DNA of 20,000 nt, taken from positions 112,426 to 132,425 of the IMG/VR virus record IMGVR_UViG_3300031787_000018. One strand, written 5' to 3'. Shown in pieces: positions 10,820-19,800 of this stretch. This DNA comes from an uncultured virus (IMG/VR IMGVR_UViG_3300031787_000018) (lineage: Duplodnaviria > Heunggongvirae > Uroviricota > Caudoviricetes). A program made the position numbers and the translations under genes. Every line of letters begins with the position of its first letter. The stretch's first letter is position 1. Under the pieces are notes generated by a model, which had not been told where the DNA came from, did no database searches, and was given only the letters and a program-made list of their open reading frames with translations.

Positions 10820-12505
10820 TTAATCACCCCACACCCATTTTTTATTACCACAATCCCAAATAATGTTGTAACCACGTTCATACATTATTTGTTTTTCAGT
10901 CTTATTCGGATCATAACCATCTTTAATTAATTTATCTTTCCTAAAATTATATCTGTGCATTCTAACCAAGTCTTTGAAATACCAATAATTTAATTCGGTA
11001 TTTTTTAAAAATTTAAAGCCCAATTTTTCATATAAACCACCATCAAAATACCTGTTATCGGAATAAGATACGACATTTTTTGGTTTATAATTTTGTATGA
11101 AATGTCCGAACAATTTTGAAGCCCCACCAACTATTTTTGTGTTTAATTTATTACAAAATCTTAACATCTCATATTCATAATTGTTGTTACCCACACCTGA
11201 ACGATTACCGAATGTCATAACAGAAACCAATTCGTCTTTATAATATAAACCCAAATTTATAGACGCGTTAACAGACCCTTGAATGTGGTTATTACCCAAA
11301 AATTTCGATGATTCTTTATTGGTTATTGTTTTTATAACACACTTTCTTGCGAATATATTGGTATCGAATATGTTTAAATTAGCTTTTATAATAGATAATA
11401 CAATATCTTTTTTAAATAACCACTCATCTTCAAAAATATGTAATAGTTTAATATTTTTATCTTTACATAATAACGTCTTATTTATGTGATATGTTTTACT
11501 TTTATTTATTTCACTATGCCAATACAATCCATCATATTCTATGGCTAAATTTTTCTGCGGTATGAAAATATCCAATTCACAACCACCGAGTATCTTTTTA
11601 TTATTAATCTCAACTAACATCCCAGTCAAATTCTCTATATAACTAACAATATCTCTATGTGGTTTGGTGTAGTTTGATCCGTTAAGTGGGAAACAATTGA
11701 TGCATATTTCATACCCCAACCTATTTCTTTGATTAAATAAATAATTGTCTATTTTAAAAATTTTGTCACATTTATCACATTTTAATGTTAATACTTTATT
11801 TTCGTAATCAATAAAAGTATACCCACTGAAATTATTTAATTTATCTATTATTTTGTTTTTAAAAATCACATTTTTAAACTCTTCACTTTGTGAGTAGTTC
11901 TCTACATTAAATTTTGTTAAATTAGTTTTTTTAGATTTTTCTTTAACTTCTTCTAACTGAAAAGGGTTTGATACGCCGTATTTTTTAATAAGATTCTCTT
12001 TTCTTAAATTCTTTATATCGTCAGAATACCAATGGTGGGTAAAACCGTATCTTTCTAAATTAGTTTTTTTTACTTTATTTTTTATTTCATCATTATGTAA
12101 ACTACATGTTACACCATACTTTTCTAAATTAGTTTTTTTTACTTTATTTTTTATTTCATCATTTCTTAAAGGACTTGTTACACCATATTTTTTTACATTA
12201 GTTTCCTTTATTTTATTTTTAGTATTTTGGTTATTTACACCACATTTTATAGAACAGTTTTTATTATAACCCTTTTTTAGTGAGATAAATTTCACATCAT
12301 TTACCCCACAAACCTCACATTTAGGTGGTTTGTTAGTATTATTTATATATAAATAAATTTTCTCTTTAAAAGTTAAGCTGTCTTCTTTATTGAAGTTTAT
12401 TATTTTTGAGTATAAATCGTAGTTATTGTCCCGTAACCAACTTTCTCTAACCCTAAGACCGTTATTATTTTCAGTAAAATAATCCAGTAAATTTATATTA
12501 TCCAT
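10820..12505 (-). CDS. free-standing Hef-like putative homing endonuclease (Zn ribbons + TNLEKYG repeats + Vsr/DUF559-like nuclease + GNAT/Mom-like C-domain)
   Basis: CEVC..CSIKC and CDKC..CINC; KKTNLEKYG repeats; ELDIFIP..LAIEYDGLYWH..LLHIFEDEW; then FARKC..NHIQG..LRFC..GGASKL..SYSD..LYEKLGF. ATG 12505 preferred over TTG 12526 because ATATTTAT lies on the minus strand at 12533-12526. Confidence 0.75.
   Translation of the reverse strand: MDNINLLDYFTENNNGLRVRESWLRDNNYDLYSKIINFNKEDSLTFKEKIYLYINNTNKPPKCEVCGVNDVKFISLKKGYNKNCSIKCGVNNQNTKNKIKETNVKKYGVTSPLRNDEIKNKVKKTNLEKYGVTCSLHNDEIKNKVKKTNLERYGFTHHWYSDDIKNLRKENLIKKYGVSNPFQLEEVKEKSKKTNLTKFNVENYSQSEEFKNVIFKNKIIDKLNNFSGYTFIDYENKVLTLKCDKCDKIFKIDNYLFNQRNRLGYEICINCFPLNGSNYTKPHRDIVSYIENLTGMLVEINNKKILGGCELDIFIPQKNLAIEYDGLYWHSEINKSKTYHINKTLLCKDKNIKLLHIFEDEWLFKKDIVLSIIKANLNIFDTNIFARKCVIKTITNKESSKFLGNNHIQGSVNASINLGLYYKDELVSVMTFGNRSGVGNNNYEYEMLRFCNKLNTKIVGGASKLFGHFIQNYKPKNVVSYSDNRYFDGGLYEKLGFKFLKNTELNYWYFKDLVRMHRYNFRKDKLIKDGYDPNKTEKQIMYERGYNIIWDCGNKKWVWGD
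12052..12163 (-). repeat. 69-bp-period coding repeat (23-aa unit containing NDEIKNKVKKTNLE(K/R)YG)
   Basis: Identical 43-mer TTTCTAAATTAGTTTTTTTTACTTTATTTTTTATTTCATCATT at 12052 and 12121; more diverged units flank them. Confidence 0.9.
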
Positions 12506-12555
12506 ATTGTATGACTTATTTATCAATAAATATATTCATTTTTAGCCAAAGTCAA

Positions 12556-12563
12556 ATATTTAT
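12556..12563 (+). promoter_or_regulatory. ATATTTAT motif upstream of the likely true DHH start
   Basis: 17 nt upstream of ATG 12581, supporting that start rather than TTG 12694. Confidence 0.5.
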
Positions 12564-12580
12564 TTAAAAAAGTGTAAATA

Positions 12581-14016
12581 ATGATAATATCAGAAAAAAT
12601 ATTTGAAAAGATCCTGATAGAAAGTGGAATACGTAATATACGTAATTTGTCTTATAGATACGATAAGGCAAAAATCTACTTTCATCAGGATCTTTGAGGG
12701 AACTTGATGGTGTTACAACGGCTATAGCTATGAAAAAATACCTAGAAGATAACGGTATTAAGGTTGTAGAGTGTGAAGTGATACAATACGGTGACCAAGA
12801 ATTTTCCATTAAAAAACCAATGGCAAGAGGTGATATCATGCCAGTTTTAGTTGACTTCGCTCACGGTAAACCGATGTTTGTTATACATACAGATCATCAC
12901 GATAAGCAAGTAGGTGCTGAAGCTGGAGCTTCCAAATCATTTAGACACTCTAGGTCCAACGTCGAGACAATTTCTCAAATAATATCAACTAAAGAATTAT
13001 TCCCTAGTTTTGATATTAATATGATTTCCACTATAGATAGTGCTAATTACGCTAAAATGGGTATATCTCCTGAACAGGTGATGAATTATGTATTTGGGTT
13101 AGATAAAGAGAAAAGTTTAGAGGATAACAAAAAGGCTATGGCTCTTGTTTGTAATAAACTTTTGTTGGCTTATAAAAACAAACCAAGATTTTTAGAAAGA
13201 TTGGTTATGGAATCTAGTCCATCATTGTTAAACATATACCAAAACATAGTTAGAATGGCTAAAGAAGAGGGTTATTCCTCACCAGAGGTTATGTCACAAT
13301 ATTCTAAAGAATATGGTGAAACTATGAAGAATAGTGAAAATGTGAAATATGATGAAAAAACAGGTATTATTTCACAATATGGTGGTGGTTCTATGATTAA
13401 ACCCGGATCTTATGACAGATACGTACCTTTTAAAAACTTTCCTGACGCTAACTTCTTAATTATAGCTTGGCCTTTAGGTTTACTACAGGCATCATGTAAC
13501 CCATTTAAACCTGAAAGGTCTATAAAGGGTATAAATTTGGGTGAAATAGCACAGGAAGTATTAAAAAAACACGAACAGGAGTTAAAAAACACAATAATAA
13601 GTGTAGACACTTTAAAATACTTCGCCGAAAAACACAAATCTTTTTCAGAGGAGAGTGTTGGTTTTACATTTAAAGATTTAATGTCACTATATGGTGATAT
13701 TGGTGAAGGTGTTAGGGGTTTAAACACAATTCCAGAAGGTGCCGCACCTGATTATACGGTTGAAAGATGGCAAAACGCTATAAAAAATGTGATGGACAAA
13801 CATTACTCAACTTTGGGTGAAAGAGAAATTAAGGCATTAAAAATGTTGTCTATAACTGGTTGGGATATTATCCAAGCAAACAGTGGGGGACACAAATGTA
13901 TAACTAACATATCGGGGTTAATGTATTTCGGCAAGGATGGTGTTCTTTGGCTTAAAAAATTACAATCCGAATTTATTGAAGAATTAAAAAACTTAATATT
14001 ACAAAATGAAAACTAA
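12581..14016 (+). CDS. DHH-family phosphoesterase in two frames (12581..12694 joined to 12706..14016, 474 aa if the 11-nt gap is skipped)
   Basis: Segment 1 ends KAKIYFHQDL-TGA; segment 2 resumes DGVTTAIAMK, rebuilding motif I (HxDxDG). Downstream are VLVDFAH, HTDHH, TIDSA and C-terminal SGGH (DHHA1), with no other disruption. Confidence 0.85.
12692..12705 (+). other. candidate translational bypass site: take-off CTT (12692-12694), stop TGA (12695-12697), matched landing CTT (12703-12705)
   Basis: CAT CAG GAT CTT tgagggaa CTT GAT GGT; removing 11 nt restores HQDLDG exactly. Confidence 0.65.
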
Positions 14017-14254
14017 ATTAAAACAAATTTTACTACAAATATTCACAACCAAAGTTGGTTGGTTAGGATTTTCTATGTTTTGTGCCATATTATTTGGTAC
14101 AATAGCGGAAGATTATGAATGGGCACAAATACCTTTTATTTTATCTTGGATTTGGCCGGTTCTTTATACTTTAATTGGTATCACATATGCTTGGATTATA
14201 AACCCAATTAGACAATACAAAGAAACTAAAAAATTAAAACAAAATAAAAAATGA
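14006..14254 (+). CDS. small membrane protein (2 predicted TM helices, basic C-terminus)
   Basis: Hydrophobic stretches VGWLGFSMFCAILFGTIA and IPFILSWIWPVLYTLIGITYAWII; overlaps both neighbours. Confidence 0.75.
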   Translation: MKTKLKQILLQIFTTKVGWLGFSMFCAILFGTIAEDYEWAQIPFILSWIWPVLYTLIGITYAWIINPIRQYKETKKLKQNKK

Positions 14255-14664
14255 TTTATTTTTCATTGGTTTTTATAATATTAGCATCTATTTGTAATGC
14301 GGTTATGGATAAATCTACCCACCATTACCATACTTCAATTTTTAAAAAATTTAATAATGAGATGTGGTGGAATGGTGAAATATCTTGGAAAAATAAATAT
14401 GTTGATGGTGACTATTCTAAAGGTAGGGTTAAATGGTTTTTTGGTTTAAACAAACCTGTACAATTAACAGACGCTTTTCATTTTTTCAAAATGTGGATGG
14501 TTATATTTATCTGTTTAAGTATTATAACATTCGATAAATGTTTGGTTTTTGTGGACTGTAGTTATCGTTGGTACAGTTTTTTAATAGTATTGGGTGTGTA
14601 CGGTACTTTATGGAATACAACATTTTCTTTATTTTACAATAAAATATTGGATCAATCCAAATAA
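14251..14664 (+). CDS. hypothetical membrane protein
   Basis: 137 aa, ATGA-coupled to the previous gene; hydrophobic segments; SWKNKY and LTDAFHFFK motifs. Confidence 0.75.
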   Translation: MIYFSLVFIILASICNAVMDKSTHHYHTSIFKKFNNEMWWNGEISWKNKYVDGDYSKGRVKWFFGLNKPVQLTDAFHFFKMWMVIFICLSIITFDKCLVFVDCSYRWYSFLIVLGVYGTLWNTTFSLFYNKILDQSK

Positions 14665-15317: not shown

Positions 15318-17840
15318 TTACTCACTTTTATCTTCTTTCTTTTTAGAAGATTTAGGTTTTTTAATTGTAACCTTAATGTCTTCGATTTTGGTATCGTAAG
15401 ATATTGTTACAATATCACCTAATGAGATGTCACCGTCTAAGACTTTTTCCGCGACAGGATCTTCAACGTATTTTTGAATGGCTCTGTTAAGTGGACGTGC
15501 TCCATATTTTTCGTCATAACCTTTTTCAATCAAATACTCTTTTAAAGTATCATCTAATTTAAGAGTATAACCCATTTCTTTCACACGTTCAATTACATCA
15601 TTAAGTGGGATATCGACAATTTTACCAATTTCTTCCTTACCTAAAGATTTGAAAACAATAACGTCATCAAGACGATTTAAAAATTCAGGTGAAAATGCCT
15701 TTTTAAGGGAGTCCTGAATAACATTTTCAGAATCATCATCAATTCTATCAAGTTTAGCTTTGGTACCATACCCTACACCAGTACCAAATTCTTGTAGTTT
15801 ACGAGCTCCTACGTTTGATGTCATAATGATTAAACAGTTTTTAAAATCAACCTTACGACCTAAACCATCACTTAAATGACCATCATCAAAAACTTGTAAA
15901 AGAATGTTGAAAACGTCTGGGTGTGCTTTTTCTACCTCATCCAATAAGATAACAGAAAAAGGTTTTCTTCTGATTTTTTCGGTTAATTGACCACCTTCTT
16001 CGTACCCAACATATCCTGGAGGAGCTCCAATCAGTTTAGATACTGAATGTTTTTCCATGTATTCCGACATATCAACACGAATTAAAGCGTCAGTTGAACC
16101 AAAAATACTTTGAGCCAACATTTTAGCCAAATAAGTTTTACCAACACCAGTAGGACCTAAAAACATAAAAGAACCAATTGGTTTGTTTTTGTTTTTAATA
16201 CCTATTCTATTACGTTTAATAGCTTTGGTAATCTTATCGATAGCGGAATCCTGACCAATAACTTTTTCTTTAATCTCTTTATCCATGGTACGGAGTTTTT
16301 CGGTTTCTGTTTGACCTACTTTGGTTACAGGTATACCAGTTACCATAGATACGACTTTTGCTACGTCATCTTCTGACACAACAGGTCTTGATTTATCCAA
16401 AGATTTTGACCACTCGTTAGTTGCGTTTTCTAACTCATCTTGTAATTTCTTTTCTTCATCACGAAGTTTTGCTGCGTCTTCATAACGTTGAGCCTTCACT
16501 ACATCGATTTTTTGTTGACCTATTTCGGAAATTTTTTCTTCCAAATCCATAATATTTTTTGGTGGTTTGATGTGAACTTGTAGTCTTGCACCAACCTCAT
16601 CCATAATATCAATAGCTTTGTCAGGTTGTTCACGGTCATTAATATAACGGTCAGCTAAATTAACGCAGGCTTCAATAGCTTCGGTTGTATAATTAACCTT
16701 GTGATGGTCTTCGTATTTATTCTTAATATTGTTAAGAATAATCAAAGTTTCATCTTTTGACGGCGGTTCAACAAGTACCATTTGAAAACGTCTAGCTAAA
16801 GCTCCGTCTTTTTCTATGTTTTCACGATACTCATCAAGAGTTGTAGCCCCAATACATTGTATTTCACCCCTCGCTAAAGCTGGTTTAAGAATGTTAGAAG
16901 CGTCCAATGAACCTGAAGCGTTACCGGCTCCAACCATAGTATGAATTTCATCTATGAATAAGATAACATCGTCAGCTTTTTCTAATTCCTGCATGATACC
17001 TTTCATTCTTTCTTCAAATTGTCCACGGTATTTAGTTCCAGCAACTAAAGACGCTAAGTCCAAACTAACCACACGTTTATCAAAAAGAATACGAGGACAT
17101 TTTCTTTCAACAATCTTAAGAGCAAGTCCTTCGACTATTGCTGTTTTACCTACACCTGGTTCCCCAATCAAAATCGGATTGTTCTTTTTACGTCTTGAAA
17201 GAATTTGTGAAACCCTTTCAATTTCATCTGCTCTACCAATAATTGGGTCTATTTGACCGTCAGAGGCTAGTTTAGTAATATCCCTACCAAAGTTATCTAA
17301 GATAGGTGTTGTTGACTTACCCTGTGAAGCTTTTTTAGCTTTCTTACCGTAGTCTTCAATTTCTTCAAAATCTCCTGTCATATTAATTATTTTTTGTTCT
17401 TTTAAATTTAATAAAGTTTCTTTAAAAGTTCTATAGGTTATACCCTGATTTCCTAAAACTTTTGTTCCATCTAATGTACGATTTTTAAGTATTGATAAAA
17501 CAATGTGTTCAACATTTATTGTATCATCCTTTAATTTATCTGATTCCAATTCAGCCGAACTTAAGGCGTGTTTGGAGGATTCACTTAAGGGAACTATTTT
17601 TACTTCTACAATATTAGGGTTTTTTATTTTAAGTCTCAAGTAGCCTTCCAATTTTTCCATTAAATCTGTTACATCTGAACCCATTTCTTTAAAAACATCA
17701 ACCGCACCATTTTCTTTATCATTAAAAACTGCTAATAATATGTGTTCAGGTTTAATTTTGTTGTCATTAAGTCTAATTGATTCCTTAAAAGCACTTTTAA
17801 GAATACCTTTTAATTTAGGTGTCATTTTTTTCATCATCAA
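15318..17840 (-). CDS. clpC: ATP-dependent Clp protease ATP-binding subunit, ClpC type
   Basis: Two Clp-N repeats (EHILL, EHIVL), AAA1 [14 protein letters not shown], short UVR-type middle domain ([11 protein letters not shown]), AAA2 [21 protein letters not shown] pore loop, VGY ClpP-binding-type loop, GARPL. Confidence 0.95.
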
Positions 17841-18471: not shown

Positions 18472-18643
18472 ATATAAAGAAATTAAAACGGGTTTTATCT
18501 TTAAAGTTACGAATTTCACCACCACTTTGGATGGTATTGTGGATACTGTACATTTGAAAAGAATAGATACTGATGATACTTTAGAGGTGGGCGAAGATAG
18601 ATTTCAGAAAAACTTTATAAATGTTTATGATGAACAAAAATGA
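18455..18643 (+). CDS. hypothetical protein, 62 aa
   Basis: Overlaps the KTSC gene and is ATGA-coupled to thyA. Confidence 0.65.
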   Translation: MKLKNKYKEIKTGFIFKVTNFTTTLDGIVDTVHLKRIDTDDTLEVGEDRFQKNFINVYDEQK

Positions 18644-19800
18644 ACGTAATGGATAAACAATACACAGACCTTTTAAAGGATATATTGGAGAATGGTGTCG
18701 AGAAAGATACTAGAAACGGTAAGGTTTTAAGTGTGTTCGGGAGAACAATACGATACAAATTTAAGGATGGAAAATTCCCACTTCTTACGACCAAAAAAAT
18801 GTATTTCAAAGGAATTGTAACAGAATTGTTATGGTTCTTACGTGGTGATACAAACATCAAATACCTTGTTGATAATGATTGTCATATTTGGGATGGTGAT
18901 GCGTATAAGAACTATGAGAAAGAAATTTTAAGACAACGTGAATTACAAAAGAAAGAAGTAGAAAGATTGCGTAATTCTGGTAAGAGAGTTAAAGTATCTC
19001 TAATTGAACTACTATCAAAAGAAGAATTCATAAACAAAATAAAAACAGATGATGAGTTTGCTAAGAAGTGGGGTGAATTAGGTCCAATTTATGGTAAACA
19101 ATGGAGAAGTTGGAATGGGAATGGAAGTCCATTAACAAAAGATTACGAAGGTAATATAAGTTCATATTTAGTTAAACCAATAGACCAAATCGCAAACCTA
19201 ATCCGAGACCTTAAAACAAATCCAGACTCAAGACGATTAATGGTTAATGCTTGGAATGTTGGTGAATTGGATACGATGGTTCTCCCACCATGTCATTATG
19301 GATTTCAAGTTTATACAAGAGAGTTGAGTTTAGAAGAGAGAGAATCTCTAATGGATAAAATCTACGGGTTAAATAAAGAAACAAGACAAGTACCTTGGCA
19401 TATAGTTGATATTGATAAAGCTAACATTCCAACCAGAGCAATCTCTTTACTTTGGAATCAACGCAGCATCGATACTCCATTGGGTTTGCCGTTTAACATA
19501 GCATCATATGGTTTATTATTAGAAATAATTGCTAAAGAGGTTAATATGGTTCCTGATGAGTTAATTGGTAATTTAGGTGATACTCATATCTACTTAAATC
19601 AAATTGATGGTGTTAAAGAACAAATTACACGAGAAGGTTTTGAATTACCTAGATTAAAAATAAAAGGTATAAATGATAATCATATGATATATCCTAAACT
19701 AATACCAACAACTGGTGAGGAGGAATTTTATGAAATATCTGATTTTATATTAGAAGGATATCAATCTCACCCAACAATTAAATTCCCATTATCAAATTAA
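18640..19800 (+). CDS. thyA: thymidylate synthase (ThyA) with variable insertions
   Basis: FPLLTTKK, ELLWFLRG, LGPIYGKQWR, DSRRLMVNAWN, LPPCH, QRSxD..LGLPFNIASY, GDTHIYLNQ. Confidence 0.96.
   Translation: MNVMDKQYTDLLKDILENGVEKDTRNGKVLSVFGRTIRYKFKDGKFPLLTTKKMYFKGIVTELLWFLRGDTNIKYLVDNDCHIWDGDAYKNYEKEILRQRELQKKEVERLRNSGKRVKVSLIELLSKEEFINKIKTDDEFAKKWGELGPIYGKQWRSWNGNGSPLTKDYEGNISSYLVKPIDQIANLIRDLKTNPDSRRLMVNAWNVGELDTMVLPPCHYGFQVYTRELSLEERESLMDKIYGLNKETRQVPWHIVDIDKANIPTRAISLLWNQRSIDTPLGLPFNIASYGLLLEIIAKEVNMVPDELIGNLGDTHIYLNQIDGVKEQITREGFELPRLKIKGINDNHMIYPKLIPTTGEEEFYEISDFILEGYQSHPTIKFPLSN

What the first reader, a model, noticed from the sequence alone, without database searches (positions are those of the whole stretch)
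12581..12720. Candidate programmed ribosomal bypass: an 11-nt coding gap splits the catalytic motif of a DHH phosphoesterase
Seen: the ORF track starts this gene at TTG 12694 (MRELDGVTT), which lacks the first Asp of DHH motif I. ATG 12581, in another frame and preceded by the recurrent ATATTTAT motif, encodes 38 aa ending IYFHQDL and then TGA. The junction reads CAG GAT CTT | TGA GGGAA CTT | GAT GGT. A peptidyl-tRNA-Leu leaving CTT at the stop and re-pairing at the identical CTT 11 nt later gives IYFHQDLDGVTTAIAMK and an intact 474-aa enzyme. The remaining 436 codons are undisrupted and keep all DHH motifs. Established: matched take-off and landing codons flanking a stop codon is the layout of T4 gene 60 bypassing (GGA-UAG...GGA, 50 nt). 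Inference: this is a much shorter, independent bypass element in a different gene family. Precise removal of an 11-nt micro-intron from the RNA, or a -1 frameshift giving HQDLLRELDG, are alternatives.
Basis: partly seen in the sequence, partly recalled or inferred. Interest (0 to 1): 0.93.

Follow-up and report, generated by a model that had tools for sequence, protein, structure and literature searches.

The report
Natural ribosome stop-hop in phage gene
A phage enzyme gene is cut inside its catalytic motif by 11 real extra bases that begin with a stop codon, and dozens of related phages keep similar 6-, 8-, 9- or 11-base gaps under selection, so ribosomes most likely hop from one leucine codon to the next, a decoding trick so far known in nature mainly from phage T4.

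Summary
ATG 12581 opens 38 codons ending IYFHQDL, then TGA. The remaining 436 codons continue 11 nt later in another frame.

It is neither an assembly error nor a pseudogene:
- The same 11 nt occur in other assemblies and in runs of 17 studies.
- Intact homologues read exactly HQDLDG.
- 45 viral and 44 metagenome contigs carry a gap at this same codon. Each has a CTN Leu codon, a stop, 0-5 spacer bases, then a Leu codon; gap lengths are 6, 8, 9 or 11 nt.
- Gapped alleles evolve with dN/dS of 0.04-0.37, like intact ones.
- Metatranscriptome contigs keep the 11 nt.
- A 21-nt synonymous-codon context marks gapped alleles: 48 of 54 gapped against 1 of 148 intact.

The gap is also a recombination breakpoint, and it often sits beside homing-endonuclease genes.

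Best reading: a programmed Leu-to-Leu "stop-hop", a miniature of the T4 gene 60/MobA cassette. There is no protein evidence.

This scan noted similar endonuclease-linked micro-gaps before, on other phage DNA, but not in this gene.

The parts
10820..12526 (-). Free-standing homing-endonuclease gene (568 aa). It is divergently oriented, and its start lies 55 nt upstream of the DHH-like gene.
   Evidence: PHROG 3339 'homing endonuclease', E 1.9e-135. Pfam DUF7487 at 3.6e-22, with weak REase_MTES_1575 and Mom matches. Relatives lie within the fetched flanks of 6 of 49 unique gapped alleles and 2 of 54 intact ones.
12556..12563 (+). ATATTTAT motif 25 nt upstream of ATG 12581; a likely expression signal.
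   Evidence: 12 matches in the window against 6.4 expected. Plus-strand copies lie 13-32 nt upstream of ORF starts at 359, 1036, 3026, 4746 and 12581. Nucleotide similarity to homologues, gapped or intact, begins at about 12556.
12581..12694 (+). First coding segment: 38 codons from ATG through the take-off Leu (…AKIYFHQDL).
   Evidence: It is homologous to the N-termini of intact homologues. Contigs from RNA libraries begin at 12581 and 12599.
12674..12694 (+). Gap-linked nucleotide context ATC TAC TTT CAT CAG GAT CTT. These synonymous codons are otherwise rare in this genome, and CAG GAT gives an SD-like AGGA.
   Evidence: ATC TAC TTT CAY CAG GAY CTN occurs in 48 of 54 distinct gapped haplotypes and in 1 of 148 intact ones, although the scan patterns allowed all synonyms. 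Genome codon usage: ATC 231 of 2347 Ile, CAG 94 of 699 Gln, CTT 272 of 2335 Leu.
12692..12694 (+). Take-off codon CTT (Leu38).
   Evidence: The take-off codon is CTT, CTC or CTG in 54 of 54 distinct gapped haplotypes, whereas 140 of 148 intact haplotypes use TTA or TTG there.
12695..12705 (+). The 11-nt coding gap TGA GGGAA CTT: stop codon (12695-97), 5-nt spacer (12698-702) and landing codon CTT (12703-05).
   Evidence: The 11-nt class also occurs with spacers GGAAA, CGGGT, CGGCA, CGAAA, CGAGT and CGACA, and with landing codon CTT or CTA. The gap is kept in three RNA-library contigs with 0 differences and no joint.
12706..14016 (+). Second coding segment: 436 codons plus stop (DGVTTAIAMK…), carrying DHH motifs II-IV and the DHHA1 GGH motif.
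   Evidence: D87, D100-H101-H102, D148 and G431-G432-H433 are invariant in the alignment of 25 intact homologues. The AF2 model of the 90%-identical intact homologue matches RecJ, DhhP, PggH, GdpP and NrnA.

Best explanation
The gene at 12581-14016 encodes one 474-residue DHH/DHHA1-type phosphoesterase, made by a programmed translational hop.

Proposed mechanism (inferred):
1. The ribosome translates 38 codons, so peptidyl-tRNA-Leu sits on CUU (12692-94) with the stop UGA in the A site.
2. Before release factor acts, the tRNA unpairs and the mRNA slides 11 nt.
3. The same tRNA re-pairs with CUU (12703-05), and decoding resumes at GAU (12706). This rebuilds the catalytic motif HQDLDG.

Related phages carry the same device with gaps of 6, 8, 9 or 11 nt. 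The 6-nt form (CUU UGA CUU) is the 'stop-hop' previously known only from synthetic constructs.

The gap most likely arrived by recombination together with the 5' end of the gene. It probably serves, or once served, as the self-protection mark of a neighbouring homing endonuclease, as the 50-nt gap of T4 gene 60 does for MobA.

Shown here:
- the gap is real DNA;
- it is retained in contigs from RNA libraries;
- it is conserved in kind across many diverged alleles;
- both coding segments are under purifying selection;
- the junction is a recombination breakpoint.

Inferred, not shown:
- the hop itself and its efficiency;
- which tRNA performs it (the phage encodes a tRNA with anticodon UAG that could read all CUN codons);
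- the role of the 21-nt upstream context;
- the endonuclease-immunity function.
For: (1) The product of the hop equals the intact sequence. 76 of 79 related loci read …IYFHQDLDGVTT… without interruption. Two huge-phage homologues do the same.

(2) The architecture recurs.
- 45 of 46 pattern matches in IMG/VR and 44 of 47 in metagenome contigs are homologues with a stop directly after the Leu codon.
- Over all fetched loci there are 60 with a 6-nt gap, 5 with 8 nt, 7 with 9 nt and 21 with 11 nt; redundant contigs are included.
- A stop-agnostic scan allowing 1-30 nt found 42 of 42 gaps starting with TGA, TAG or TAA and ending in CTN.
- Only a hop gives the same protein for both the in-frame (6, 9 nt) and the frame-shifting (8, 11 nt) gaps.

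(3) The gapped genes are functional.
- Among 49 unique gapped alleles with at least 400 codons of downstream sequence, 48 are open throughout.
- Gapped-gapped dN/dS is 0.04-0.37 where computable (one of 25 pairs had pS too high for the correction), against 0.04-0.17 for 11 computable of 13 intact-intact pairs.
- With only 5% neutral substitutions per site, the frame stays open in 9-30 of 2000 simulations.
- The nine codons between the landing codon and the first Met keep their amino acids through many synonymous changes.

(4) The gap stays in RNA. Contigs of three metatranscriptome runs from three studies bridge 12695-12705 with 0 differences, 0 gaps and no joint. Their cover starts near the gene start, whereas a DNA contig runs on upstream.

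(5) The context is shift-prone.
- Take-off CUU followed by UGA.
- Rare synonymous codons ATC TAC TTT CAY CAG GAY CTN in 48 of 54 gapped haplotypes against 1 of 148 intact.
- TGA is a genuine stop in this genome: it ends 16 of 100 long ORFs, and no suppressor tRNA is present.

(6) The junction is mosaic and the gap is mobile.
- On the tree of 103 unique alleles, the gap state needs at least 12 changes.
- 5' of the gap, the window is 88-93% identical to four other 11-nt alleles but 52-72% identical to its nearest intact relative.
- 3' of the gap this reverses: 87% against 76-78%.
- Endonuclease genes lie next to the gene: the window's PHROG 3339 homing endonuclease, a LAGLIDADG gene in L150, and a 295-308-aa ORF with an HNH-like motif directly upstream in 19 of 49 gapped alleles and 0 of 54 intact ones.
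Against: - There is no protein or ribosome evidence. The hop and its yield are inferred.
- The RNA evidence rests on assembled contigs from RNA libraries. These hide rare forms and may include carried-over DNA.
- Part of the low dN/dS may date from before each lineage acquired its gap.
- No significant local RNA structure was found. Mean MFE around the junction is not clearly below that of shuffles: -8.35 against -8.73 for 6-nt alleles, -10.6 against -9.3 for 11-nt alleles.
- Take-off and landing codons are not always identical (CTG>CTT, CTC>CTT, CTT>CTA, CTT>CTG).
- Two alleles have a landing codon that mismatches in its first base: GTT in L166 and ATA in L169.
- One lineage (L093 group) also has an in-frame TAA in place of a conserved Ser. 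L158 is truncated after about 200 codons.
- The endonuclease link is only partial. 26 of 48 gapped alleles with at least 1000 nt of upstream sequence show no recognised endonuclease. The phylogenetically controlled test has only 7 contrasts and gives p of about 0.5.
- The nuclease nature of the 295-308-aa ORF rests on a motif I read myself. Pfam, PDB sequence search and a low-confidence model gave nothing.
Confidence: 0.75

Rival explanations
1. Mixed recoding with insertions. The frame-shifting alleles (8, 11 nt) use a -1 frameshift and the in-frame alleles (6, 9 nt) use stop-codon readthrough. This would put 2-4 extra residues between the two Asp of motif I; in the window, HQDLLRELDG.
For: In the 8- and 11-nt alleles the -1 frame is open across the gap. 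Stop readthrough is common in phages (general knowledge).
Against: - It needs two different mechanisms for one conserved architecture.
- There is no slippery site: tRNA-Leu on CUU would have to re-pair with UCU.
- No suppressor tRNA is encoded in the genome.
- The spacer bases vary freely (GGGAA, GGAAA, CGGGT, CGGCA, CGAAA, CGAGT, CGACA), so the inserted residues would not be conserved.
- It does not explain why a Leu codon always precedes GAY GGN.
- D-x-D spacing is invariant in the 25 aligned intact homologues, and all 148 intact haplotypes were found by a pattern that requires D-L-D-G.
Confidence: 0.07
2. Split enzyme. Translation ends at the stop, and the C-terminal 436-440 residues are made separately, for example by restart at the overlapping TTG 12694. 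The 38-aa peptide either associates non-covalently or is dispensable.
For: TTG 12694 overlaps the stop and is in frame with the downstream part. The same TTG exists in other 8- and 11-nt alleles (my reading). Phage genes split by homing endonucleases can still work as two chains, for example T4 gp39/gp60 as described in bioRxiv 10.1101/2022.08.31.505936 section 12.
Against: - The commonest class (6 nt, CTT TGA CTT GAC) has no in-frame start codon after the stop.
- The split would separate the two metal-binding Asp of one motif.
- The landing Leu codon and the eight codons after it are conserved as coding sequence, although a restart model does not need the Leu.
- The N-terminal 38 codons remain under selection in gapped alleles.
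Confidence: 0.06
3. RNA-level removal. The 6-11 nt are cut out of, or edited from, the mRNA before translation.
For: Removing exactly the gap restores the frame in every allele.
Against: - Three RNA-library contigs keep the 11 nt and no joined form was reported.
- No Rfam family matches 11500-14500 at E up to 1.
- No known splicing system removes 6 nt.
- The need for a stop codon as the first gap codon (42 of 42) has no role in splicing.
Confidence: 0.04
4. Dead or dying gene. The gap is a selfish endonuclease scar that inactivates the enzyme, and the open frames are a remnant of recent invasion.
For: - The gap is mosaic and mobile.
- One gapped lineage has an extra in-frame stop and one is truncated.
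- Part of the measured dN/dS may predate the gap.
Against: - 48 of 49 unique gapped alleles are open over 400-425 codons.
- The gap cassettes themselves have diverged: 22 different junction strings, and synonymous differences of 0.05-0.43 in the 30 codons 5' of the gap in most pairs.
- 5-10% neutral change would already close the frame in more than 98% of simulations.
- Whole clades consist only of gapped alleles, with within-clade dN/dS of 0.09-0.19.
Confidence: 0.05

Closest known systems
Phage T4 gene 60 50-nt translational bypass within the MobA homing-endonuclease element. Source: Manning & Atkins, bioRxiv 10.1101/2022.08.31.505936; abstract, introduction and section 12 read. Bonocora 2011 is known to me only as cited there.
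   Same: - Matched take-off and landing codons.
- A stop codon directly after take-off.
- The gap lies 36-46 codons into the gene and splits a metal-binding motif.
- An endonuclease gene sits just upstream.
- The gap and the 5' gene end move together.
- Some alleles lack a recognised endonuclease, and different endonuclease families occur beside the same gap.
   Different: - Different gene (DHH-like phosphoesterase, not topoisomerase), with no sequence relation.
- The gap is 6-11 nt, not about 50.
- Leu CUN codons, not Gly GGA.
- No significant take-off stem-loop.
- No split of the host gene into two ORFs with added tails.
- The nascent-peptide signal was not examined.
[quoted passage not shown] Source: Weiss et al. 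1987, as described in Atkins et al. 2016, PMC5009743; passages read.
   Same: The 6-nt alleles (CUU UGA/UAG/UAA CUU) have exactly this layout. The window's allele adds a 5-nt spacer.
   Different: Those were engineered sites. The review states that no natural occurrence of in-frame stop hopping was known. Here the layout is natural, conserved and under selection.
Streptomyces phage phiHau3 terminase 10-nt UUA-headed inserts. Source: Antonov et al. 2023, PMC10732093; passages read.
   Same: A short gap of about 10 nt in a phage enzyme gene. It starts with a slow-to-decode A-site codon and has a landing codon.
   Different: - There the slow codon is a rare sense codon (UUA), proposed to sense the host's state.
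- Only three genes were compared.
- No endonuclease link is mentioned in the passages I read.
- Bypass there was shown by mass spectrometry in E. coli.
prfB (RF2) +1 frameshift site CUU UGA C with an upstream Shine-Dalgarno-like element (recalled, not read here).
   Same: The same P-site and A-site pair, CUU UGA. It is often followed by C in the related alleles, and an SD-like AGGA lies just 5' of it.
   Different: A +1 shift in the window meets TGA after three codons, so it cannot give the enzyme. The re-pairing site here does not overlap the take-off codon.
Magnusiomyces mitochondrial 'byps': 27-55 nt inserts. Source: as summarised in the introduction of the same preprint.
   Same: Mobile short inserts that translation tolerates by bypassing.
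   Different: Those are many inserts per genome, in a eukaryotic organelle, are longer, and start with an unassigned sense codon.

Membership tests
Programmed translational bypassing (hopping) | Take-off and landing codons are readable by the same peptidyl-tRNA and do not overlap. | tested here: met
   Window: CTT…CTT. All 42 gaps from the stop-agnostic scan end in CTN. In the metagenome set, 42 of 44 gapped alleles land on CTN; the two exceptions are GTT and ATA.
Programmed translational bypassing (hopping) | A slow-to-decode codon (a stop or a hungry codon) sits in the A site at take-off. | tested here: met
   42 of 42 gaps begin with TGA, TAG or TAA, although any bases were allowed. TGA is a true stop in this genome.
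Programmed translational bypassing (hopping) | The gap is present in the mature mRNA. | tested here: met
   Contigs of three RNA libraries bridge the gap with no difference and no joint. Caveats: these are contigs only, and DNA carry-over is possible.
Programmed translational bypassing (hopping) | One polypeptide is encoded on both sides of the gap. | not testable with these tools
   This needs mass spectrometry or reporters. The comparative evidence is only indirect.
T4 gene 60 / MobA bypass cassette family | Homologous ~50-nt cassette in the Topo II large-subunit gene, with take-off stem-loop, GGA codons and the nascent-peptide signal. | tested here: not met
   Different gene, gap length and codons. 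No significant stem-loop. It works like the cassette but is not a member of that family.
Stop-hop (9 nt specify one residue) | Identical or cognate codons directly flank a single stop codon. | tested here: not met
   This is met by the 6-nt alleles of relatives (60 loci). The window's own allele has 5 extra spacer bases, making it an extended form.
DHH/DHHA1 phosphoesterase superfamily | Motifs I (DxD), II (D), III (DHH), IV (D) and the DHHA1 GGGH motif. | tested here: met
   D36, D38, D87, D100-H101-H102, D148 and G431-G432-H433 are invariant in 25 intact homologues. In the window, motif I is complete only after the hop.
DHH/DHHA1 phosphoesterase superfamily | Match to the family's sequence profiles. 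| tested here: not met
   No Pfam or PHROG hit. Only weak RecJ NCBIfam hits far below cut-off: E 6e-4, 18 bits against a cut-off of 397. No PDB sequence hit apart from one irrelevant match at E 0.39.
DHH/DHHA1 phosphoesterase superfamily | Two-domain DHH + DHHA1 fold. | tested here: met
   The AF2 model (pLDDT 74) has RecJ, DhhP, PggH, GdpP and NrnA among its hits. The best is 5x4h at E 6.2e-5, probability 1.0. TM-scores are low (0.14-0.37).
Homing-endonuclease mobile cassette with target-site immunity | An endonuclease gene lies next to the interrupted site. | tested here: met
   Window ORF 10820-12526: PHROG 3339 homing endonuclease, E 1.9e-135.
Homing-endonuclease mobile cassette with target-site immunity | Co-conversion or mosaic structure around the site. 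| tested here: met
   Identity to other 11-nt alleles is higher than to the nearest intact relative 5' of the gap, and lower 3' of it. Synonymous differences in the 30 codons 5' of take-off are lower than in the C part in most gapped pairs. The gap state changes at least 12 times on the tree.
Homing-endonuclease mobile cassette with target-site immunity | Gap and endonuclease are associated beyond shared ancestry. | tested here: inconclusive
   Raw counts for any recognised endonuclease, including the LAGLIDADG gene in L150, among alleles with at least 1000 nt upstream: 22 of 48 gapped against 1 of 49 intact. Only 7 independent contrasts exist; the endonuclease goes the same way in 2.2 and the other way in 0.1, p about 0.5.
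Homing-endonuclease mobile cassette with target-site immunity | The endonuclease cuts the uninterrupted site and spares the gapped one. | not testable with these tools
   This needs a cleavage assay.

The most novel reading that the evidence does not exclude
This is the first natural, evolutionarily maintained 'stop-hop'. A family of mobile micro coding gaps (6, 8, 9 and 11 nt) is programmed by a roughly 21-nt upstream mRNA context and decoded by Leu-to-Leu re-pairing of one tRNA, possibly the phage's own tRNA with anticodon UAG. The gaps spread with at least three unrelated homing-endonuclease families as their target-site immunity. Together with the similar notes this scan made on other phage genes, this would mean that endonuclease-linked ribosome hopping is a general and overlooked way in which phages tolerate selfish insertions inside catalytic motifs.
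Probability: 0.45. Interest if true: 0.92.

Novelty: new variant of a known kind. Interest (0 to 1): 0.86.

Why it matters
Natural programmed bypassing has rested on very few cases: T4 gene 60 and its relatives, yeast mitochondrial byps, and the phiHau3 candidate. The 2016 reference review states that no natural in-frame stop-hop was known (PMC5009743). My four literature searches found no report of this one.

This case offers a natural mutational series. There are about 50 distinct alleles, four gap lengths, all three stop codons, several take-off and landing codon pairs, and a sharply defined upstream context. Intact alleles of the same gene serve as controls.

That makes the minimal requirements for ribosome hopping directly testable with short reporters.

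It also matters for annotation. Gene callers truncate this enzyme at a false TTG start, so it loses a catalytic Asp.

Finally, it extends the endonuclease-plus-bypass partnership of T4 to a second gene family, and probably to other endonuclease families.

Tried and rejected
- **Assembly error:** rejected. The junction is identical in two other IMG/VR contigs, one metagenome contig and a DNA run contig.
- **Alternative genetic code (TGA as sense):** rejected. It would not restore the frame, TGA ends 16 of 100 long ORFs, and tRNA-Trp has anticodon CCA.
- **prfB-like +1 shift:** rejected. The +1 frame stops after three codons.
- **Known RNA element or intron:** no Rfam match in 11500-14500 at E up to 1.
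- **Conserved hairpin around the gap:** the window, L086 and L096 can fold CAUCAGGAUCUU[UGA…]CUUGAUG. Across the classes, however, the MFE is not below that of shuffles, so I make no claim.
- **Other copies of the gap sequence in the genome:** the only other match has 2 mismatches and is unrelated.
- **Near-identical phage records in GenBank:** none. Only two distant huge-phage homologues were found.
- **Naming the 295-308-aa upstream ORF:** no Pfam hit at E up to 10, no NCBIfam or PDB sequence hit, and the AF2 model is below pLDDT 50 in the motif region, so no fold search was run on it. The language-model neighbours (DUF723, DUF4379, DUF7487; HNH at 0.88) are leads only.
- **A 129-aa ORF elsewhere in the genome with a similar motif:** it also has no Pfam hit.
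- **Chance pattern hits dropped:** L115, L131, L135 and L172.
- **Cover of RNA contigs upstream of 12581:** it is absent or low. I treat this only as a weak hint of a transcript start.
Full report
**1. What is in the window**

- ATG 12581 opens 38 codons (…AKIYFHQDL).
- The take-off codon CTT is 12692-12694 and TGA is 12695-12697.
- The spacer GGGAA is 12698-12702, a second CTT is 12703-12705, and GAT GGT follows from 12706.
- The long ORF that a gene caller starts at TTG 12694 (440 codons, to 14016) is in the -1 frame relative to the first segment.
- Skipping 12695-12705 gives IYFHQDLDGVTT.

The window is the last 20 kb of a 132,425-base IMG/VR virus record with 30% G+C.

**2. The intact gene exists, and it equals the skipped reading**

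- tblastn against GenBank phages found only two distant homologues, in huge uncultured phages. Both are uninterrupted and read …IYFHKDLDGVTS… and …IWFHKDLDGVAS….
- In IMG/VR, 452 of 466 candidate stretches encode relatives, and 80 loci were kept.
- Of the 79 loci whose 5' end is present, 76 are uninterrupted and read …IYFH[QM]D[LT]DGVTT….
- The three exceptions are two contigs identical to the window at the junction (L005, L006) and L080. L080 has only 58% protein identity and reads CAG GAC CTT TAA CTT GAC GGA at the same codon.

**3. A family of gaps at one codon**

- I scanned for [KE]IYFHQDL followed by TRR, with all synonymous codons allowed.
  - This found 46 stretches in IMG/VR. 45 are homologues with a stop after the Leu codon, and L115 is a chance hit.
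  - It found 47 stretches in metagenome contigs. 44 are gapped homologues, and L131, L135 and L172 are chance hits.
- Over all fetched loci with a junction (171, with redundant contigs included) there are 78 intact alleles. A further 60 have a 6-nt gap, 5 have 8 nt, 7 have 9 nt and 21 have 11 nt. Together they show 22 different junction strings.
- Examples:

| Gap length | Take-off codon | Gap | Next codon |
|---|---|---|---|
| 6 nt | CTT | TGA CTT | GAC |
| 6 nt | CTG | TGA CTT | |
| 6 nt | CTT | TAG CTT | |
| 6 nt | CTT | TAA CTT | |
| 6 nt | CTT | TGA CTG | |
| 8 nt | CTT | TGA CG CTA, or TGA CG CTG | |
| 9 nt | CTC | TGA GGG CTT, TAA GGG CTT or TAA AGG CTT | |
| 11 nt | CTT | TGA + spacer + CTT or CTA | |

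- The 11-nt spacers are GGGAA, GGAAA, CGGGT, CGGCA, CGAAA, CGAGT and CGACA.
- Two alleles have a landing codon changed in its first base: GTT in L166 and ATA in L169.
- I then ran a scan that did not ask for a stop: conserved 5' context, any 1-30 nt, then GAYGGNGT.
  - It returned 42 stretches.
  - All 42 gaps start with TGA, TAG or TAA, and all 42 end in CTN.
  - Only lengths of 6, 8, 9 and 11 nt occur.
Gapped alleles are therefore a minority, roughly a tenth of the 452 relatives.

**4. The gapped genes are alive**

- Of 49 unique gapped alleles with at least 400 downstream codons available, 48 are open throughout. The L093 group has one in-frame TAA in place of a conserved Ser.
- L158 is truncated after about 200 codons.
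- Nei-Gojobori estimates over 425 codons 3' of the gap:
  - Gapped-gapped pairs give dN/dS of 0.04-0.37 in the 24 of 25 pairs where it is computable.
  - Their proportion of synonymous differences (pS) is 0.25-0.76 over all 25 pairs.
  - Intact-intact pairs give dN/dS of 0.04-0.17 in the 11 of 13 pairs where it is computable.
- Several clades consist only of gapped alleles, for example a clade of seven 6-nt alleles and the clade L132/L094/L105/L150. Their within-clade dN/dS is 0.09-0.19.
- A simple neutral simulation shows how fragile these AT-rich frames are. At 5% substitutions per site the frame survives in 9-30 of 2000 trials, and at 10% in 0-1 of 2000.
- Caveat: because the gap is mobile (section 7), part of the divergence between two gapped alleles may predate their gaps. 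The diversity of the gaps themselves and the all-gapped clades argue that much of it does not.

**5. The gap stays in RNA**

- The stretch is held by runs of 17 studies, six of them on record as RNA.
- Contigs of three metatranscriptome runs from three studies cover 12599-13250, 12581-12863 and 12663-12894.
  - They show 0 differences and 0 gaps, and no joint lacking the 11 nt was reported.
- A DNA contig of an unrelated 2025 run covers 12450-12903 identically.
- RNA cover is absent or low just upstream of 12581, where the DNA contig continues. That is a weak hint that these are transcripts.
- Contigs hide rare forms, and DNA carry-over cannot be excluded.

**6. A nucleotide context that goes with the gap**

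I compared 54 distinct gapped and 148 distinct intact junction haplotypes. All were found with patterns that allow every synonym.

| Codon | Gapped | Intact |
|---|---|---|
| Ile ATC | 53 | 9 |
| Tyr TAC | 51 | 38 |
| Gln CAG | 52 | 14 |
| Asp GAC | 47 | 36 |
| Leu CTN | 54 | 8 |
| Whole string ATC TAC TTT CAY CAG GAY CTN | 48 | 1 (L052) |

- These are minority codons in this genome.
- CAG GAY creates AGGA one base before the take-off codon. CUU UGA is also the P-site and A-site pair of the prfB shift site (recalled).
- The context may be a recoding signal, the footprint of an endonuclease target or co-conversion tract, or both. The data do not separate these.
- Folding of the -24 to +21 region is not more stable than shuffles.

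**7. Mosaic structure and endonucleases**

- On a FastTree of 103 unique C-terminal parts, gapped versus intact needs at least 12 changes.
  - 8 of these are forced by well-supported branches.
  - The shuffled mean is 34.5, and 0 of 500 shuffles are as low.
- The window's allele is sister to the intact L007.
- L080 (6 nt) and L086 (11 nt) are each nested in intact clades.
- Identity across the junction flips sharply:
  - In the 54 nt 5' of the gap, the window is 88-93% identical to the other 11-nt alleles L133, L086, L096 and L174, but 72% identical to L007. In the next 54 nt upstream the figures are 80-89% and 52%.
  - In the 54 nt 3' of the gap, it is 87% identical to L007 and 74-78% identical to those alleles.
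- Likewise, pS in the 30 codons 5' of take-off is mostly 0.05-0.43 between gapped alleles. In their C parts it is 0.55-0.75. It is 0.45-1.05 between intact alleles.
- Endonuclease genes beside gapped alleles:
  - The window's upstream neighbour (10820-12526, minus strand) is a homing endonuclease by PHROG 3339, E 1.9e-135.
  - Its relatives lie within the fetched flanks of 6 of 49 unique gapped alleles and 2 of 54 intact ones.
  - L150 has a LAGLIDADG gene upstream.
  - A 295-308-aa ORF ends within 40 nt of the gene start, or overlaps it, in most of the 19 of 49 unique gapped alleles that carry it; in L151 it ends 125 nt upstream. It occurs beside 0 of 54 intact alleles.
- That 295-308-aa ORF has invariant H252, D254, H255, N277 and N286 and several CxxC pairs. 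I read this as HNH-like, but no library or model confirms it.
- 26 of 48 gapped alleles with at least 1000 nt upstream have no recognised endonuclease.
- The test on independent contrasts has only 7 pairs: same direction 2.2, opposite 0.1, p about 0.5.
- The link is therefore suggestive, not proven.
- It matches the pattern described for MobA elements. There the endonuclease is often lost or replaced while the bypass stays (preprint section 12).

**8. What the protein is**

- Pfam and PHROGs give nothing. NCBIfam gives only sub-threshold RecJ hits on the intact homologue L007.
- The alignment of 25 intact homologues has invariant residues at all the DHH/DHHA1 motif positions.
- The AF2 model (pLDDT 74, pTM 0.62) finds RecJ, DhhP, PggH, GdpP and NrnA among its hits. 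The best is E 6.2e-5, and TM-scores are low, as expected for a two-domain hinge protein.
- The substrate is unknown.

**9. Mechanism and rivals**

- One mechanism explains every allele. Peptidyl-tRNA-Leu leaves a CUN codon while a stop waits in the A site, then re-pairs with the next CUN codon 6-11 nt downstream.
- The phage encodes 22 tRNAs.
  - One has anticodon UAG and could read all four CUN codons.
  - None is a suppressor, and the anticodon loop of the UAG tRNA is normal.
- The rival explanations are a frameshift plus readthrough with inserted residues, a split enzyme with restart at the overlapping TTG, RNA excision, and a decaying gene. Each fails on at least one class of allele or on the selection data, as set out in the rival explanations.
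- I put the hop at about 0.75.

**10. Relation to what is known**

- The review by Atkins et al. 2016 describes synthetic stop-hops and says that no natural in-frame case was known (passages).
- The phiHau3 terminase has 10-nt UUA-headed inserts, with mass-spectrometry support for bypass in E. coli (passages).
- The gene 60 cassette is mobile with MobA, and the gap protects against MobA.
- Searches found no report of a gap in a DHH-type gene or of a natural stop-hop. Subscription journals are not covered.
- Earlier notes of this scan describe endonuclease-linked micro-gaps in other phage genes, including portal, neck, terminase, connector and rfbA genes. None concerns this gene.
- I did not test those notes, and they are not evidence here.

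Noticed in passing
L093, L103, L117, L129, L149 (identical sequences), 84 codons after the landing codon: An in-frame TAA replaces the conserved Ser of the RSNVE motif (TCA to TAA) in a 6-nt-gap lineage. This is either the start of decay in that lineage or another recoded stop.
   Followed up: partly
L166 and L169 junctions: These two gapped alleles have a landing codon that is not Leu: CTC|TGA GGG GTT|GAC and CTT|TGA CG ATA|GAT. The first base mismatches, yet the downstream frames are open. They are natural tests of how strict landing must be.
   Followed up: no
G000:C1:30204-30403 (outside the window): Phage tRNAs with anticodons UAG and UAA are only 77 and 75 nt long and have short variable arms, which is unusual for bacterial-type tRNA-Leu. 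The UAG one could read every take-off and landing codon seen.
   Followed up: partly
window 18640-19800: The thymidylate synthase is 386 aa, but the Pfam profile of 266 positions is matched end to end. The protein therefore carries roughly 120 extra residues inside the domain.
   Followed up: no
window 12581-12599: Contigs from two RNA libraries begin at 12581 and 12599, while a DNA contig continues upstream. The transcript may start at or very near the ATG, possibly giving a leaderless or very short leader.
   Followed up: no
window 15318-17840: An 840-aa ClpB/ClpA-type double AAA+ chaperone gene lies in this phage (PHROG 4871, E 5e-265).
   Followed up: no
L092, L093, L094, L103, L132 and others, directly upstream of the DHH-like gene: C5 and N4/N6 DNA methyltransferase genes are frequent upstream neighbours. 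The C5 methylase cluster was seen beside 8 gapped loci and 0 intact ones.
   Followed up: no
G000:C1:46258-46647 (L340:1759-2148, minus strand): A 129-aa ORF has the same HxDH…N…N motif as the 295-308-aa upstream ORFs of gapped relatives. It sits next to a DNA/RNA non-specific endonuclease gene (Pfam Endonuclease_NS, 5.4e-25).
   Followed up: partly
L158, about 200 codons after the landing codon: This gapped allele is truncated and followed by an unrelated ORF. It is a deletion or a recombinant contig.
   Followed up: partly
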